Positions 7,419 through 36,116 of a stretch of 52,628 nt of DNA are shown here, in pieces. Below the pieces are notes generated by a model. The model did not search any database. It worked only from the letters and a program-made list of their open reading frames with translations, and had not been told where the DNA came from. This stretch comes from Stegostoma tigrinum (lineage: Eukaryota): contig NC_081398.1 in assembly GCF_030684315.1 (NCBI RefSeq), forward strand, positions 6,490,385-6,543,012. The letters are read 5' to 3'. A program made the position numbers and the translations under genes. Position 1 is the stretch's first letter; each line of letters opens with the position of its first letter.

Positions 7419-7529
7419 TTTCACCCTTAGTAAGGGGCTCAAGGATATGAGTGGGGATGTCTTCCTGCAACTGTACAGGACGTTGGTGACAGCACATCAG
7501 GAGTATTGTCTTTAGTCCTGATGCTACAT

Positions 7530-10500
7530 CTGACTGGGAGCACTGTGTACAATCCGGTCTCTATTTCAACTGTTTACACTCTGATCTTTATATCTCAGCA
7601 GGAGCACTGTGTACTGTCCAGTCTCCATATCACACTGGGCGAGCACTGTTTACAATCTGGCCTGAATATTACACTGGGAGCACTCTGTACAATCCAATCT
7701 CTATATCACACTGGGGGAGCACTCTATGCAGTCCAGTCTCTATGTGACACTGGGGGAGCACTACGTACAGTCCAGTCTCTAGTCTGGTCTCTATGTCAGA
7801 CGAGGGGAGCAATGTGTACAGTCCAGTCTCTATATCACACTGGGGGAGCATTCTGTACAGTCTGGTCTCTATGTCAGACGAGGGTTGCAATGTGTACGGT
7901 CCAGTCTCTATATCACACTGGGGGAGCACTGTGTGCAGTCCAGTCTCTTTCTCACACTGGGGGAACACTCTGTACAGTCTGGTCTCTATATCAGACTAAG
8001 GGAGCACTGTATATAGTCCAGTCTATATATTACACTGGGGGAGCACTCTATACAGTCCAGACTCTATATCACACTGGGGAACACTGTGTACAATCCAGTC
8101 TCTATATCACACTGGGGAAGGACTGTGTACAATCCGGTCTCTATATCACACTGGGGGAGCACTGTGTACAATCCAGTCTCCGTATCGCACTGCGGGAGCA
8201 CTGTGTACAGTCCAGTCTGTATATCACACTGGGACCACTCAGTACAGTCTGGTCACTATATTACATTGGGAGCACTGTATATAGTCCAGTCTCACACTGG
8301 GGGAGCATTGTGTACAATCCGGTCTCTATATCACACTGGGGAGCACTGTGTACAGTCCGGTCTCTATATCACACTGGGGGAGCATTCTGTACAGTCTGGT
8401 CTCTATGTCAGACGAGGGGAGCAATGTGTACAGTCCAGTCTCTATATCACACTGGGGGAGCATTCTGTACAGTCTGGTCTCTATGTCAGACGAGGGGAGC
8501 AATGTGTACAGTCCAGTCTCTATATCACACTGGGGGAGCATTCTGTACAGTCTGGTCTCTATGTCAGACGAGGGTTGCAATGTGTACGGTCCAGTCTCTA
8601 TATCACACTGGGGGAGCACTGTGTGCAGTCCAGTCTCTTTCTCACACTGGGGGAACACTCTGTACAGTCTGGTCTCTATATCAGACTAAGGGAGCACTGT
8701 ATATAGTCCAGTCTATATATTACACTGGGGGAGCACTCTATACAGTCCAGTCTCTATATCACACTGGGGAACACTGTGTACAATCCAGTCTCTATATCAC
8801 ACTGGGGAAGGACTGTGTACAATCCGGTCTCTATATCACACTGGGGGAGCACTGTGTACAATCCAGTCTCCGTATCGCACTGCGGGAGCACTGTGTACAG
8901 TCCAGTCTGTATATCACACTGGGAGCACTCTGTACAGTCTGGTCACTATATTACATTGGGAGCACTGTATATAGTCCAGTCTCACACTGGGGGAGCATTG
9001 TGTACAATCCGGTCTCTATATCACACTGGGGAGCACTGTGTACAGTCCGGTCTCTATATCACACTGGGGGAGCATTCTGTACAGTCTGGTCTCTATGTCA
9101 GACGAGGGGAGCAATGCGTACAGTCCAGTCTCTATATCACACTGGGGGAGCATTCTGTACAGTCTGGTCTCTATGTCAGACGAGGGGAGCAATGTATACA
9201 GTCCCGTCTCTATATCACACTGGGGGAGCATTCTGTACAGTCTGGTCTCTATGTCAGACGAGGGGAGCTATGTATACAGTCCAGTCTCTATATCACACTG
9301 GGGGAGCATTCTGTACAGTCTGGTCTCTATGTCAGACGAGGGGAGCAATGTGTACAGTCCAGTCTCTATATCACACTGGGGGAGCACTGTGTGCAGTCCA
9401 GTCTCTTTCTCACACTGGGGGAACACTCTGTACAGTCTGGTCTCTATATCAGACTAAGGGAGCACTGTATATAGTCCAGTCTATATATCACACTGGGGGA
9501 GCACTGTGTACAATCCAGTCTCCGTATCACACTGCGGGAGCACTGTGTACAGTCCAGTCTATATATCACACTGGGGAGCACTGTGTACAGTCCGGTCTCT
9601 ATATCACACTGGGGGAGCATTCTGTACAGTCTGATCTCTATGTCAGACGAGGGGAGCAATGTGTACAGTTCAGTCTCTATATCACACTGGGGGAGCACTG
9701 TGTGCAGTCCAGTCTCTTTCTCACATTGGGGGAACACTCTGTACAGTCTGGTCTCTATATCAGACTAAGGGAGCACTGTATATAGTCCAGTCTATATATC
9801 ACACTGGGGGAGCACTGTGTACAATCCAGTCTCCGTATCACACTGCGGGAGCACTGTGTACAGTCCAGTCTATATATCACACTGGGACCACTCAGTACAG
9901 TCTGGTCTCTATATCAGACTAAGGGAGCACTGTATATAGTCCAGTCTATATATCACACTGGGGGAGCACTGTGTACAATCCAGTCTCTTTATCACACTGC
10001 GGAAGGACTGTGTACAATCCGGTCTCTATATCACACTGGGGGAGCACTGTGTACAATCCAGTCTCCGTATCGCACTGCAGGAGCACTGTGTACAGTCCAG
10101 TCTGTATATCACACTGGGACCACTCAGTACAGTCTGGTCACTATATTACATTGGGAGCACTGTATATAGTCCAGTCTCACACTGGGGGAGCACTGTGTAC
10201 AATCCGGTCTCTATATCACACTGGGGGAGCATTCTGTACAGTCTGGTCTCTATGTCAGACGAGGGGAGCAATGTGTACAGTCCAGTCTCTATATCACACT
10301 GGGGGAGCATTCTGTACAGTCTGGTCTCTATGTCAGACGAGGGGAGCAATGTGTACAGTCCAGTCTCTATATCACACTGGGGGAGCATTCTGTACAGTCT
10401 GGTCTCTATGTCAGACGAGGGGAGCTATGTATACAGTCCAGTCTCTATATCACACTGGGGGAGCATTCTGTACAGTCTGGTCTCTATGTCAGACGAGGGT

Positions 10501-11045
10501 TGCAATGTGTACGGTCCAGTCTCTATATCACACTGGGGGAGCACTGTGTGCAGTCCAGTCTCTTTCTCACACTGGGGGAACACTCTGTACAGTCTGGTCT
10601 CTATATCAGACTAAGGGAGCACTGTATATAGTCCAGTCTATATGTTACACTGGGGGAGCACTGTGTACAATCCAGTCTCCGTATCACACTGCGGGAGCAC
10701 TGTGTTCAGTCCAGTCTATATATCACACTGGGGGTGCACTGTGTACAGTCCAGTCTCTACACTACACTGGAAGCACTGTGTACAGTCCAGTCCTTCTATC
10801 ACACTGGGAGCACTCTGTACAGTCCAGTCTCTATATCACACTGGGGGAGCACTGTATATAATCCAGTCTCTATATCCCACTGGGGGAGCACTGTGTACAG
10901 TCCAGTCCCTATATTACACTGGGATCACTGTGTACAGTACAGTCTCTATATCCCACTGGGGGAGCACTGTCTGCAGTCCAGTCCCTATATCACACTGGGA
11001 TTACTGTGTACAGTCCAGTCTCTATGTCACACTTGGGTAATACTG
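7530..11045. repeat. 39-bp minisatellite, about 3.5 kb, with higher-order structure
   Basis: Unit about ACACTGGGGGAGCACTGTGTACAGTCCAGTCTCTATATC, with 78-bp dimers and a 690-bp block duplication (identical ORF starts at 8086/8776 and 8348/9038). Confidence 0.95.
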
Positions 11046-25109: not shown

Positions 25110-25457
25110 CCATGACTTTGACCCTGGAGCGGGCGCACATCTCCATGTCAGCGCCAACGTTCTCCAGGCAGCACTCGACGGCGCCCCCTGGCGGCGCGAA
25201 GGAGAAGCCCGGCACACGGAAGGTGGCATTTCCACCAGTTTCTTCCAGGATGAGGGCGTGGTTCTCAGACTGGGCAACCGCGGTGGTCCCCGCTTTCCAT
25301 AGCTCGAAGTGGCACCGGTCGGTGGAGTTACTGGACATGCACGTCACGCCCAGGCCCTCAGTGCCGACGCAGCGCAGGTTTAAGCCCCACTGGAAATTTA
25401 GCTCTTCCCCTTGTTTCGCCCTGAACTCGAAATGCACTGGCGAGAAAACATCAGTGT
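25110..25457 (-). CDS. Gene A exon: degenerate, Cys-rich V-like Ig domain 2
   Basis: Acceptor ttctctggtatttgcag|, donor ATGG|GTAAGT, 348 nt, phase 1-1, open frame, CpG-rich unique sequence among repeats. Strand-like motifs FRAKQGEELNFQW, GNATFRV, GGAVECC, MCARSRVKV. Confidence 0.8.
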
Positions 25458-30918: not shown

Positions 30919-31272
30919 CTTGTTTGACGCCCAATGAAACAGTGGAGCAAATCAGACTCTTCTGGTGGTTCAAGCGGACATAACAGAAGTAGGTGCCGTT
31001 GTCATTCAGCATGACGTGCTTGAGGGTAAGGGCTGCCTCGTTCGTCCTGCGCCAGTCGGGGTGTAACATGGTCCTGTTCTTGTACCAGGCGTTCTGGCCA
31101 TCACCAATGGAGTCTTCTGTCTCCACATGAAACACCAACTCGGCGTCAGTCGAGCGTTTCTGCCAGATGACACTGGCAGACTCAGACACACCAGAAAAGT
31201 GGCACGGGAGGGTCACAGAGTCACCACATGTAGCCGTTACTTCCACTGCCTCATTTCTGCACATGGTCTGTC
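30919..31272 (-). CDS. Gene A exon: B7/butyrophilin-family-type IgV domain
   Basis: Acceptor tctgtttgtcctgtag|, donor CAAG|GTAAGG, 354 nt, phase 1-1, no stops. V-set motifs GDSVTLPC, VIWQK, QxxxYKNRTxL (CD80 has YKNRT), AALTLKHVxxxDNGTYFC, TVSLGV. Extra Cys in the A, A' and G strands. Confidence 0.9.
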
Positions 31273-31499
31273 CTACAGGACAAACAGACTTCAGTTGTGA
31301 CATTCCAACATCCCCTCAGGCAGCTTGAGAGGCAATCTCATTGAAGCATACCAGATTATTAAAGCCTAAAGCTGAGTAGATGTTTCCCCTCATGGGAAAG
31401 TCTGCGACCAGCCTCAGGATAAGACTGAGATGAAGAGGAATTTCATCTCTCAAAGGATCAGGAGTGTGAGGAATTACACTGAGGAGGAACTGCACACTT

Positions 31500-34400
31500 G
31501 GAGGGCCAGTGCTGAGGGAATGTCACACTGTCAGATGATCAGCTGTAAGGGAGCGCCGCACTGTCGGAGGGTCAGTGCTGAGGGAGTGCCGCACTGTCGG
31601 AGGGTCAGTGCTGAGGGAGTGCCGCACTGTCGGAGGGTCAGTGCTGAGGGAGTGCCGCACTGTCGGAGGGTCAGTGCTGAGGGAGTGCCGCACTGTCGGA
31701 GGGTCAGTGCTGAGGGAGTGCCGCACTGTCGGAGGGTCAGTGCTGAGGGAGTGCCGCACTGTTGGAGGGTCAGTGCAGAGGGAGCGCCGCACTGTCGGAG
31801 GGTCAGTGCCGAGGGAGCGCCGCACTGTGATAGGGTCAGTGCCGAGGGAGCGCCGCACTGTCGGAGTGTCAGTGCTGAGGGAGTGCGCAATGTCAAAGGG
31901 TCAGTGTTGAGGGAACACCGCACTGTCAGGGGGTCAGCACTGAGGGAGCGCCGCACTGTCAGGGGGTCAGCACTGAGGGAACACCGCACTGTCAGGGGGT
32001 CAGTGTTGAGGGAACACCGCACTGTCAGGGGGTCAGCACTGAGGGAGCGCCGCACTGTCAGGGGGTCAGCACTGAGGGAGTGCCGCACTGTCGGAGGGTC
32101 AGTGCTGAGGGAGTGCCGCACTGCTGGAGGGTCAGTGCAGAGGGGGCGCCGCACTGTCGGAGGGTCAGTGCCGAGGGAGCGCCGCACTGTGATAGGGTCA
32201 GTGCCGAGGGAGCGCCGCACTGTGATAGGGTCAGTGCCGAGGGAGCGCCGCACTGTCGGAGTGTCAGTGCTGAGGGAGTGCGCAATGTCAAAGGGTCAGT
32301 GTTGAGGGAACACCGCACTGTCAGGGGGTCAGCACTGAGGGAGCGCCGCACTGTCAGGGGGTCAGCACTGAGGGAACACCGCACTGTCAGGGGGTCAGCG
32401 CTGAGGGAACACCGCACTGTCAGGGGGTCAGCACTGAGGGAACGCCGCACTGTCAGGGGGTCAGCGCTGAGGGAACACTGCACTGCCCAAGGGTCAGCAC
32501 TGAGGGAACACTGCACTGTCAGAGGGTCAGTGCTGAGGGAACGCCGCACTGTCAGGGGGTCAGCACTGAGGGAACACCGCACTGTCAGGGGGTCAGCACT
32601 GAGGGAGCGCCGCACTGTCAGGGGGTCAGCACTGAGGGAGTGCCGCACTGTCGGAGGGTCAGTGCTGAGGGAGTGCCGCACTGCTGGAGGGTCAGTGCAG
32701 AGGGGGCGCCGCACTGTCGGAGGGTCAGTGCCGAGGGAGCGCCGCACTGTGATAGGGTCAGTGCCGAGGGAGCGCCGCACTGTGATAGGGTCAGTGCCGA
32801 GGGAGCGCCGCACTGTCGGAGTGTCAGTGCTGAGGGAGTGCGCAATGTCAAAGGGTCAGTGTTGAGGGAACACCGCACTGTCAGGGGGTCAGCACTGAGG
32901 GAGCGCCGCACTGTCAGGGGGTCAGCACTGAGGGAACACCGCACTGTCAGGGGGTCAGCGCTGAGGGAACACCGCACTGTCAGGGGGTCAGCACTGAGGG
33001 AACGCCGCACTGTCAGGGGGTCAGCGCTGAGGGAACACTGCACTGCCCAAGGGTCAGCACTGAGGGAACACTGCACTGTCAGAGGGTCAGTGCTGAGGGA
33101 ACGCCGCACTGTCAGGGGGTCAGCACTGAGGGAACACCGCACTGTCAGGGGGTCAGCACTGAGGGAGCGCCGCACTGTCAGGGGGTCAGCGCTGAGGGAA
33201 CACCGCACTGTCAGGGGGTCAGCGCTGAGGGAACACTGCACTGTCAGGGGGTCAGCACTGAGGGAACGCCGCACTGTCAGGGGGTCAGCACTGAGGGAAC
33301 ACCGCACTGTCAGGGGGTCAGCGCTGAGGGAACACTGCACTGTCAGGGGGTCAGCACTGAGGGAACGCCGCACTGTCAGGGGGTCAGCGCTGAGGAACAT
33401 CGCACCGTCAGAGGGTCAGCGTTGAGGGAACATTGCACTGTCAGGGGGTCAGTGTTGAGGGAACGCCGCACTGTCAGAGGGTCAGCGCTGAGGGAACACT
33501 GCACTGCCCAAGGGTCAGTACTGAGGGAACGCCGCACTGTCAGAGGGTCAGTGCTGAGGGAACGCCGCACTGTCAGGGGGTCAGCGCTGAGGGAACGCCG
33601 CACTGTCAGAGGGTCAGCGCTGAGGGAACACTGCACTGCCCAAGGGTCAGTACTGAGGGAACACTGCACTGTCCAAGGGTCAGTACTGAGGGAACTCCGC
33701 ACTGTCAGAGGATCAGCGCTGAGGGAACACCGCACTGTCAGGGGGTCAGCGGTGAGGGAACACTGCACTGTCAGGGGGTCAGCACTGAGGGAACGCCGCA
33801 CTGCCCGAGGGTCAGCGCTGAGGAACATCGCACCGTCAGAGGGTCAGCATTGAGGGAACATTGCACTGTCAGGGGGTCAGTGTTGAGGGAACGCCGCACT
33901 GTCAGAGGGTCAGCGCTGAGGGAACGCTGCACTGTCAGAGGGTCAGCGCTGAGGGAACACTGCACTGCCCAAGGGTCAGTACTGAGGGAACGCCGCACTG
34001 TCAGAGGGTCAGTGCTGAGGGAACGCCGCACTGTCAGGGGGTCAGCGCTGAGGGAACGCCGCACTGTCAGAGGGTCAGCGCTGAGGGAACACTGCACTGC
34101 CCAAGGGTCAGTACTGAGGGAACACTGCACTGCCCAAGGGTCAGTACTGAGGGAACTCCGCACTGTCAGAGGGTCAGTGCTGAGGGAACGCCGCACTGTC
34201 AGAGGGTCAGTGCTGAGGGAACGCCGCACTGTCAGGGGGTCAGCGCTGAGGGAACGCCGCACTGTCAGAGGGTCAGCGCTGAGGGAACGCCGCACTGTCA
34301 GAGGGTCAGCGCTGAGGGAACACTGCACTGCCCAAGGGTCAGCACTGAGGGAACACTGCACTGTCAGAGGGTCAGTGCTGAGGGAACGCCGCACTGTCAG

Positions 34401-34925
34401 AGGGTCAGCGCTGAGGAACATCGCACCGTCAGAGGGTCAGTGCTGAGGGAACGCTGCACTGTCAGGGGGTCAGCGCTGAGGAACATCGCACCGTCAGAGG
34501 GTCAGCGCTGAGGGAACGCCGCACTGTCAGAGGGTCAGCGCTGAGGAACATCGCACCGTCAGAGGGTCAGCGTTGAGGGAACGCTGCACTGTCAGGGGGT
34601 CAGCGCTGAGGGAACGCCGCACTGTCAGAGGGTCAGCGCTGAGGGAACACTGCACTGCCCAAGGGTCAGCACTGAGGGAACGCTGCACTATCAGAGGGTC
34701 AGTGCTGAGGGAACGCCGCACTGTCAGAGGGTCAGCGCTGAGGGAACATTGTACTGTCAGAGGGTCAGCGCTGAGGGAACACTGCACTGTCAGGGGGTCA
34801 GCGCTGAGGGAATGCCGCACTGTCAGAGGGTCAACACTGAGGGAATGCTGCACCATCAGAGAGTCAGCGCTGAAGGAATGCCGCACTGTCGGAGGGTCAG
34901 TGCTGAGGGTGTGCGCAATGTCAGA
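31500..34925. repeat. 33-bp GC-rich minisatellite, about 3.4 kb, in the leader-V intron of gene A
   Basis: Unit about GCACTGTCAGAGGGTCAGTGCTGAGGGAACGCC, with 560-bp (32080/32640) and 428-bp (33433/33861) higher-order duplications. Confidence 0.95.
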
Positions 34926-35025
34926 AAAGTCACATTGTGAATTAGATGCTGAATGCAGGCTTGATGCTTAGGCAGTTGCAGGAAATGACTTCTGAGACAG
35001 GATGGAGCAGTTGGGAGCATACTCA

Positions 35026-36043: not shown

Positions 36044-36116
36044 CTATTTCAAACATATTTGTCATCCAGAACAGCTTTAACAGAATGTGAAGGCGGGAAC
36101 CAGCGTTGTAGTCCAT
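36044..36116 (-). CDS. Gene A exon: signal peptide (MDYNAGSRLHILLKLFWMTNMFEI-G)
   Basis: Acceptor tcttattttcag| at 36132, ATG at 36116, donor ATAG|GTAAGA after 36044. The 73 nt end in phase 1 and join in frame to the IgV exon at 31272. Hydrophobic core LHILLKLFWM. Confidence 0.75.

What the first reader, a model, noticed from the sequence alone, without database searches (positions are those of the whole stretch)
25110..25457. Second domain of gene A is a V-like domain with a reciprocal Cys/Trp swap instead of the usual B7 C-type domain
Seen: domain 2 aligns to domain 1 strand by strand (VTATCGDSVTLPC / FRAKQGEELNFQW; ASVIW / LGVTC; NEAALTL / GNATFRV; GTYFC / GAVECC), and the F-to-G Cys spacing is 12 residues in both. 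The canonical B-strand Cys position holds Trp and the canonical C-strand Trp position holds Cys; six Cys in total. Established: most B7 proteins are V-C, and the B-F disulfide with the C-strand Trp forms the conserved Ig core. Inference: a diverged V-V architecture with a rewired disulfide core. Intact splice sites and an open frame suggest it is under selection.
Basis: partly seen in the sequence, partly recalled or inferred. Interest (0 to 1): 0.7.

Follow-up and report, generated by a model that had tools for sequence, protein, structure and literature searches.

The report
Shark surface protein, rewired antibody-like domain
This real, spliced exon encodes the second domain of an unnamed carpet-shark cell-surface protein, a domain that no family library recognises and that is likely an antibody-type V domain whose core cysteine and tryptophan have traded places, though no confident structure backs this yet.

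Summary
The exon is real: minus strand, phase-1 AG/GT ends, and joined to both neighbouring exons in contigs of 4 of 4 runs laid (2 studies). It is domain 2 (D2) of a four-exon gene, RefSeq 'uncharacterized' in zebra shark, with orthologs found in four other carpet sharks only. The product reads signal peptide, B7/butyrophilin-like V domain, D2, GPI-type tail. D2 matches no Pfam family or PDB sequence. W166, C172, C182, C238, C239 and C250 are kept in 5 of 5 species; the sixth Cys is not. A low-confidence AlphaFold model (pLDDT 38) is V-like in the same register. Against it: D2 is no more like its own D1 than shuffles are, the equal 12-residue spacing fails in 3 of 5 species, and hhalign finds nothing. 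The swap is likely, not shown. A C-F disulfide is known from CD4 domain 2. The scan's index held no look-alike sequence.

The parts
36044..36116 (-). Coding part of exon 1: signal-peptide-like leader (residues 1-25), phase-1 donor
30919..31272 (-). Exon 2: D1, V-set domain of B7/butyrophilin type with canonical C48-W61-C121 plus C29, C40, C133
   Evidence: Pfam V-set E 5e-12; best PDB hits CD276, BTN3A; its 3' end is joined to exon 3 in contigs
31226..31228 (-). D1 Cys40 in the A'-B turn, proposed partner of D2 Cys172
   Evidence: Cys in 4 of 4 orthologs that include this part; pairing inferred
25110..25457 (-). Exon 3: D2, the finding; 116 codons, no family match, likely diverged V-type Ig fold
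25387..25389 (-). Trp166 (TGG), likely at the canonical B-strand Cys position
   Evidence: 5 of 5 species; top offset of 98 in the slid-segment test
25369..25371 (-). Cys172: B-C loop Cys in the preferred register, canonical B-strand Cys in the main rival
   Evidence: 5 of 5 species; registers scored
25339..25341 (-). Cys182 (TGC), likely at the canonical C-strand Trp position
   Evidence: 5 of 5 species; falls on the Trp column in the free alignment but not singled out by the C-strand segment test
25168..25173 (-). Cys238-Cys239 on the F strand; C238 is the canonical F-strand Cys
   Evidence: 5 of 5 species; F segment best at C238
25135..25137 (-). Cys250 on the G strand
   Evidence: 5 of 5 species; G segment best here
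14616..14704 (-). Coding part of exon 4: short Ser/Thr/Gly spacer, hydrophobic C-terminus, stop; GPI-signal anatomy, no cytoplasmic tail
   Evidence: joined to exon 3 in contigs; AATAAA near 14401

Best explanation
The exon encodes the membrane-proximal domain of an expressed two-domain shark surface protein that is predicted to be GPI-anchored, and this domain is likely a strongly diverged V-type immunoglobulin fold in which Trp166 sits where the B-strand cysteine normally is and Cys182 where the C-strand tryptophan normally is. Shown: exon, splicing, gene structure, conservation of the Trp and five Cys. Inferred: with the B cysteine gone, the F-strand Cys238 would bond across to Cys182 (a C-F cross-strand disulfide as in CD4 domain 2) while Trp166 refills the core from the other sheet; each change is one third-position base (TGY/TGG). 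Cys239-Cys250 would staple F to G, Cys29-Cys133 A to G in D1, and Cys172 in the B-C loop would bond to Cys40 at the base of D1, as the Siglec D1-D2 bond does. That pairs all ten conserved Cys. The protein would be a rigid two-domain rod presenting its canonical B7-like D1 as a ligand or adhesion face, with D2 as a locked stalk and no signalling tail of its own.
For: Free global alignment of the five-species D2 profile to 11 shark B7-type V exons (D1 excluded) puts W166 on the B-Cys, C182 on the C-Trp and C238 on the F-Cys column with two gaps; 0 of 200 shuffles reach it, z 3.3; best of 18 forced register-by-profile tests, the 12 canonical-Cys ones at z 1.5 or less. Slid segments A'-B, E, F and G each peak at offsets 116-118 from D1. 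With the two swapped columns masked, z is 4.2 for the profile and 3.3-4.1 for each of 5 orthologs. The AlphaFold model is an all-beta nine-strand sandwich; 43 of 50 top VIA rows are V-type domains, and in 19 of 19 listed chains with V and C domains the V domain is the one aligned; 5 of 5 TREM2 rows start at offset 13, which places TREM2 Cys36 on W166 if no gap intervenes. ESM Atlas features: 10 of the 10 best family-bearing hits share a family or clan, and the listed ones are Ig families. Hydrophobic C-terminus without tail in 5 of 5 species. Precedents read: CD4 D2 (PMC4354306 sections 12, 17), MAG C37-C165 (PMC5150538 passages).
Against: No Pfam or PDB sequence match for D2. hhalign against D1, V, C1 and C2 profiles shows nothing convincing: probabilities 0.04-1.05%, and for D1 and B7-type V the scores sit at shuffle level. 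Against antigen-receptor V domains D2 scores below the shuffle mean (z about -1). Reversed D2 scored -3.9 against 1.2 for the real one, and 11 of 70 reversed control domains reached z 2.5; real C1 and C2 domains reach 5.3 and 4.6 on the same V profile, so z about 4 does not separate V from C. The C-strand segment test does not rank C182 in its top 8. Model pLDDT is 38, best Z 6.5, cadherins tie with V domains, and no Foldseek hit reaches E 0.001. The Tyr corner and the D-strand Arg/EF-loop Asp of V domains are absent. No disulfide, anchor or ligand was measured.
Confidence: 0.55

Rival explanations
1. No swap: Cys172 is the ordinary B-strand Cys bonded to Cys238, and D2 is a diverged C-type (the usual B7 V-C layout) or V-type domain that has merely lost the C-strand Trp and gained extra cysteines.
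For: L168-x-L170-x-C172 fits the B-strand pattern; the free alignment to the shark C1 profile chooses this register, with F193 on the Trp column; HMMER aligned C172 to a VEGFR2 B-Cys at 0.1 bit; C172-C238 spacing of 66 is plausible; it needs no unusual chemistry.
Against: z 0.5-1.0 on all six profiles, and 33 of 200 shuffles reach the C1 score; the A'-B segment scores -6.6 here against +1.4 at W166 even with the Cys bonus; leaves C182 and D1 C40 without natural partners; the model's listed matches are V rather than C domains (weak).
Confidence: 0.2
2. Cys182 is the canonical B-strand Cys (C182-C238, 56 apart), Phe193 replaces the C-strand Trp, and D2 is an I/C2-type domain with about 17 extra N-terminal residues.
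For: Best register on the C2 and Ig_2 profiles (z 1.4, 1.5); second-ranked offset when the Cys column counts; spacing typical of C2/I domains.
Against: Leaves the best V-like A'-B motif (W166 region, invariant G159) outside the fold; scores within shuffle range; C172 and C40 unexplained; V-domain matches of the model begin at its residues 3-8.
Confidence: 0.12
3. D2 is not an Ig-superfamily domain but another or new disulfide-rich beta-sandwich captured as a phase-1 exon.
For: No family, PDB or profile-profile match; no relatives beyond carpet sharks among 1.84 billion representatives apart from three bacterial repeat proteins with summed weak matches; cadherin and carbohydrate-enzyme sandwiches tie in the fold search.
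Against: Length, phase-1/phase-1 exon and colinear A'-B, E, F, G signals fit an Ig V exon; Atlas features point to Ig clusters.
Confidence: 0.1

Closest known systems
B7 / butyrophilin family (CD276, BTN3A, B7-H4)
   Same: D1 is a V-set domain with best PDB hits CD276 and BTN3A; leader, two phase-1 Ig-sized exons, membrane anchor
   Different: D2 has no C1/C2-set match; no transmembrane helix with cytoplasmic tail; extra Cys in both domains; D1 identity to the nearest paralogous V exons only about 34%
CD4 domain 2 (primates, muroids)
   Same: B-strand Cys lost, Cys gained on strand C, C-F cross-strand disulfide (PMC4354306, sections 12 and 17 read)
   Different: CD4 D2 is C2-type and its B position is Leu, not Trp; no homology to CD4 is claimed, so the parallel would be convergent
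Siglecs (MAG, CD33)
   Same: Disulfide between domains 1 and 2 (MAG C37-C165, PMC5150538 passage; CD33 C169, PMC7426717 passage); that the Siglec D2 Cys lies six residues after the B-Cys, like C172 after W166, is recalled
   Different: D1 keeps the canonical B-F pair here; no sialic-acid site tested; no cytoplasmic motifs
LAG-3 and fish CD4/PD-1 domains with altered cores
   Same: Loss or rewiring of the B/F Cys pair and C-strand Trp is documented (PMC10768021 and PMC11599192 passages)
   Different: None of the passages read describes a reciprocal Cys/Trp exchange
RefSeq LOC125448660 and orthologs LOC125487807, LOC132835316, LOC122544428
   Same: The gene model, including this exon, is already public
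   Different: All are 'uncharacterized'; D2 carries no domain annotation; 0 papers name these four ids

Membership tests
Ig V-set (D2) | Match to a V-set profile above cut-off | tested here: not met
   0 Pfam families for D2 at E 1 and for the D2-only ortholog P0004 at E 10
Ig V-set (D2) | Nine-strand V topology with C' strand | tested here: inconclusive
   Nine strands and V-type matches, but pLDDT 38 and Z at most 6.5
Ig V-set (D2) | B-strand Cys, C-strand Trp, F-strand Cys | tested here: not met
   In the preferred register W, C, C; no register gives C, W, C with a conserved Trp (W196 is Arg in 4 of 5 species)
Ig V-set (D2) | D-x-G-x-Y-x-C motif with Tyr corner | tested here: not met
   Gly and Cys kept, Asp and Tyr absent in 5 of 5 species
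Ig V-set (D2) | Colinear similarity to V domains over about 110 residues | tested here: met
   z 3.3 against B7-type V, 0 of 200 shuffles; modest, and not seen against antigen-receptor V
Ig C1/C2-set (D2) | Similarity to C1 or C2 profiles with canonical Cys pair | tested here: inconclusive
   z 1.0-1.5, within shuffle range; the fold lists cannot exclude it
B7/butyrophilin family (gene) | N-terminal B7-type V domain | tested here: met
   hhalign to shark B7-type V exons 99.6%
B7/butyrophilin family (gene) | Membrane-proximal IgC domain | tested here: inconclusive
   No C-set match, V reading preferred but unproven
B7/butyrophilin family (gene) | Transmembrane helix and cytoplasmic tail or B30.2 domain | tested here: not met
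   Hydrophobic stretch ends 0-2 residues before the stop in 5 of 5 species
B7/butyrophilin family (gene) | Binding to a CD28-family or related receptor | not testable with these tools
   no ligand data
B7/butyrophilin family (gene) | Orthology by tree and synteny to a named member | not tested
   no tree built; only local neighbours inspected
GPI-anchored proteins | Leader, small-residue spacer, C-terminal hydrophobic tail without cytoplasmic part | tested here: met
   anatomy and hydropathy in 5 of 5 species; no dedicated predictor was available

The most novel reading that the evidence does not exclude
Carpet sharks carry a GPI-anchored V-V B7-like protein whose second domain is a natural exact inversion of the Ig core pin (B-Cys to Trp, C-Trp to Cys), stabilised by a C-F cross-strand disulfide and tied to domain 1 by a Siglec-style bond; it would be a hidden class of Ig domain invisible to sequence profiles, and possibly a redox-switchable ligand for the CD28H-like or PILR-like receptors encoded beside it.
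Probability: 0.35. Interest if true: 0.65.

Novelty: new variant of a known kind. Interest (0 to 1): 0.45.

Why it matters
The Cys-Trp-Cys pin is the most conserved feature of Ig domains. A natural domain with the Cys and Trp exchanged, kept across five shark species, would be a clean test of how the core tolerates rewiring and of the stepwise route proposed for the CD4 domain 2 disulfide. It would also show that immune Ig domains can drift out of reach of Pfam, so shark B7-like repertoires are undercounted. If a rival register holds, it is an ordinary fast-evolving V-C protein with extra cysteines.

Tried and rejected
AlphaFold of the whole protein without alignment: pLDDT 35, uninformative. 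Folding D1 and D2 as two chains: no verdict, score 0.00, D2 fold uncertain; not evidence either way. No RNA holder was listed as such by the run search; the splice evidence rests on the contig joints. A whole-gene read layout, which would have tested D2-skipping or transmembrane isoforms, was not obtained, so that stays open. Three long bacterial proteins in the representative search (P0005-P0007) are repeat proteins with summed weak matches and were rejected as homologs. PDB hits of alignment A5 (CD276, CD4, CEACAM) come from D1 columns in that profile and are not D2 evidence. No C1 or C2 domain appears among the 50 rows of either VIA list; that absence is inconclusive. D2 paralogs: none in the genome with two queries, none in about 250 kb around the three nearest V paralogs. 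C2 and Ig_2 rows used a wrong F-Cys column and were redone. A recalled likeness of D1 Cys40 to an extra CD83 cysteine (CD83 hit) could not be verified. dN/dS was not possible: no ortholog DNA. Literature: searches found no description of this gene or of a reciprocal Cys/Trp swap; the library lacks most subscription papers, Flajnik 2012 on B7 evolution was not held, and supplements were not read, so absence from print is not shown.

Full report
Observation. The coordinates hold a 348-base exon on the minus strand, with a pyrimidine-rich AG acceptor and a GTAAG donor, phase 1 on both sides and an open frame. It is exon 3 of four coding exons that spell P0001, a 287-residue protein that NCBI labels uncharacterized LOC125448660 of Stegostoma tigrinum. 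Contigs in 4 of 4 runs laid (2 studies; 5 runs were listed) cover exactly the exon, and their loose ends are the end of the V exon and the start of the last exon. The exon is therefore in spliced transcripts.

Anatomy. Exon 1 gives a leader. Exon 2 is a V-set domain (Pfam E 5e-12; best PDB hits CD276 and BTN3A). Exon 3 is D2. Exon 4 gives a short Ser/Thr/Gly spacer and a hydrophobic end with 0-2 residues before the stop in 5 of 5 species, the anatomy of a GPI signal (the anchor itself is inferred). Orthologs were found in whale shark, two bamboo sharks and epaulette shark and nowhere else; these searches are word-limited or need about 35 bits, so distant orthologs may be missed. D2 is as conserved as D1: 95 of 116 and 67-68 of 114 identical, against 96 of 117 and 63-65 of 111. 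No second copy of D2 was found in the genome.

W166, C172, C182, C238, C239 and C250 are invariant in 5 of 5 species; C191 is Arg in three. The equal F-to-G spacing of 12 is 13 and 10 in those three. D2 is not detectably like its own D1. D2 has no Pfam or PDB sequence match, and hhalign against V, C1 and C2 alignments built from this genome gives probabilities of about 1% or less.

Which register. Three readings of the B strand are possible: W166, C172 or C182 at the canonical Cys. I built six profiles from this genome's Ig exons (B7-type V 11, antigen-receptor V 29, C2-set_2 29, C1 24, I-set 30, Ig_2 17; loci with stops, some repeated copies and overlaps with the I-set list were left out). 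It is the best of 18 forced combinations; the 12 with a canonical Cys reach z 1.5 at most despite the Cys bonus. Segments A'-B, E, F and G slid along D2 peak at offsets 118, 116, 117 and 117, but the C-strand segment does not pick C182 (that profile included two D1 rows). Controls temper this. Seven profiles were tried, D1 included. Reversed D2 scored within 5 points of the real one. 11 of 70 reversed control domains reached z 2.5, and true C domains can score as high on the V profile as D2 does. The free Ig_2 alignment reached z 2-3 only by opening a 16-residue gap inside strand B.

Structure. AlphaFold on six D2 rows gave pLDDT 38, pTM 0.30, all beta, nine strands. Foldseek found nothing at E 0.001. 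VIA gave Z up to 6.5, with cadherin, V-set and I-set sandwiches tied. Among Foldseek's candidates 43 of the top 50 rows are V domains, and the V domain was chosen in 19 of 19 chains that also carry a C domain. All five TREM2 rows begin at offset 13, which sets TREM2 Cys36 (PMC13540259, one passage) on W166 if ungapped. The tool warns that such models and Z values may mean only a common arrangement, so this is weak support. ESM Atlas features point to Ig clusters at scores of about 0.9, with three unnamed clusters ranked first.

Mechanism (inferred). In the preferred register all ten conserved Cys pair naturally. C48-C121 is canonical. C29-C133 links A and G, a pair also present in three other V exons of this contig. 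C182-C238 is a C-F cross-strand bond, C239-C250 links F and G, and C40-C172 joins the base of D1 to the B-C loop of D2. Trp166 would fill the space left by the C-strand Trp. Both changes are single third-position substitutions (codons TGG and TGC). The protein would be a stiff GPI-tethered rod that displays D1 and cannot signal by itself. The partner is unknown; CD28H-like and PILR-like receptor genes lie on either side, which is only suggestive.

Known context. CD4 domain 2 lost its B Cys (Leu in human) and gained a C-strand Cys that bonds to F (PMC4354306, sections 12 and 17 read). LAG-3 and fish CD4 and PD-1 show other losses and rewirings (PMC10768021 and PMC11599192, passages). MAG and CD33 have a D1-D2 disulfide (PMC5150538 and PMC7426717, passages). 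The CCW(L) core and its exceptions are set out in PMC12051499 (passages). PMC12151841 and PMC12227049 were seen as passages only and added nothing on this gene. None of these passages describes a reciprocal exchange, and no paper names the four gene ids searched. The scan's index held no look-alike sequence.

Verdict. A real, expressed, conserved and unannotated domain. V-like with the swap about 0.55; canonical C172 register 0.2; canonical C182 register 0.12; non-Ig 0.1. New variant of a known kind; interest 0.45.

Noticed in passing
window 2376-1825, minus: V-set exon of a CD28H/NKp30-like receptor gene downstream of gene A; treated by an earlier finding as an ITIM-bearing receptor.
   Followed up: partly
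L003 (C58:6589632, +), L004 (C58:5701571, -), L008 (C58:4902151, -): Three more B7-like V exons on the same contig share D1's extra A-strand and G-strand Cys pair but lack Cys40 and a detectable D2; possibly an undescribed local subfamily.
   Followed up: partly
C58:6624413-6657447 (L022-L025): Cluster of near-identical V exons with Thr-rich stalk and transmembrane exons in both orientations, PILR-like by recalled resemblance; one copy has an in-frame stop in the V exon and one transmembrane segment carries a Lys.
   Followed up: no
P0008-P0010, D1: Bamboo and epaulette shark orthologs lack six residues of the D-E loop of D1 relative to zebra and whale shark.
   Followed up: no
window about 7500-11000 and 31400-35000: Two long tandem-repeat arrays giving spurious open frames; the second lies in intron 1 of gene A.
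   Followed up: no
window 44800-42800, minus: 667-codon open frame that looks like a Penelope-type reverse transcriptase with endonuclease (recalled resemblance); many broken LINE fragments throughout the introns.
   Followed up: no
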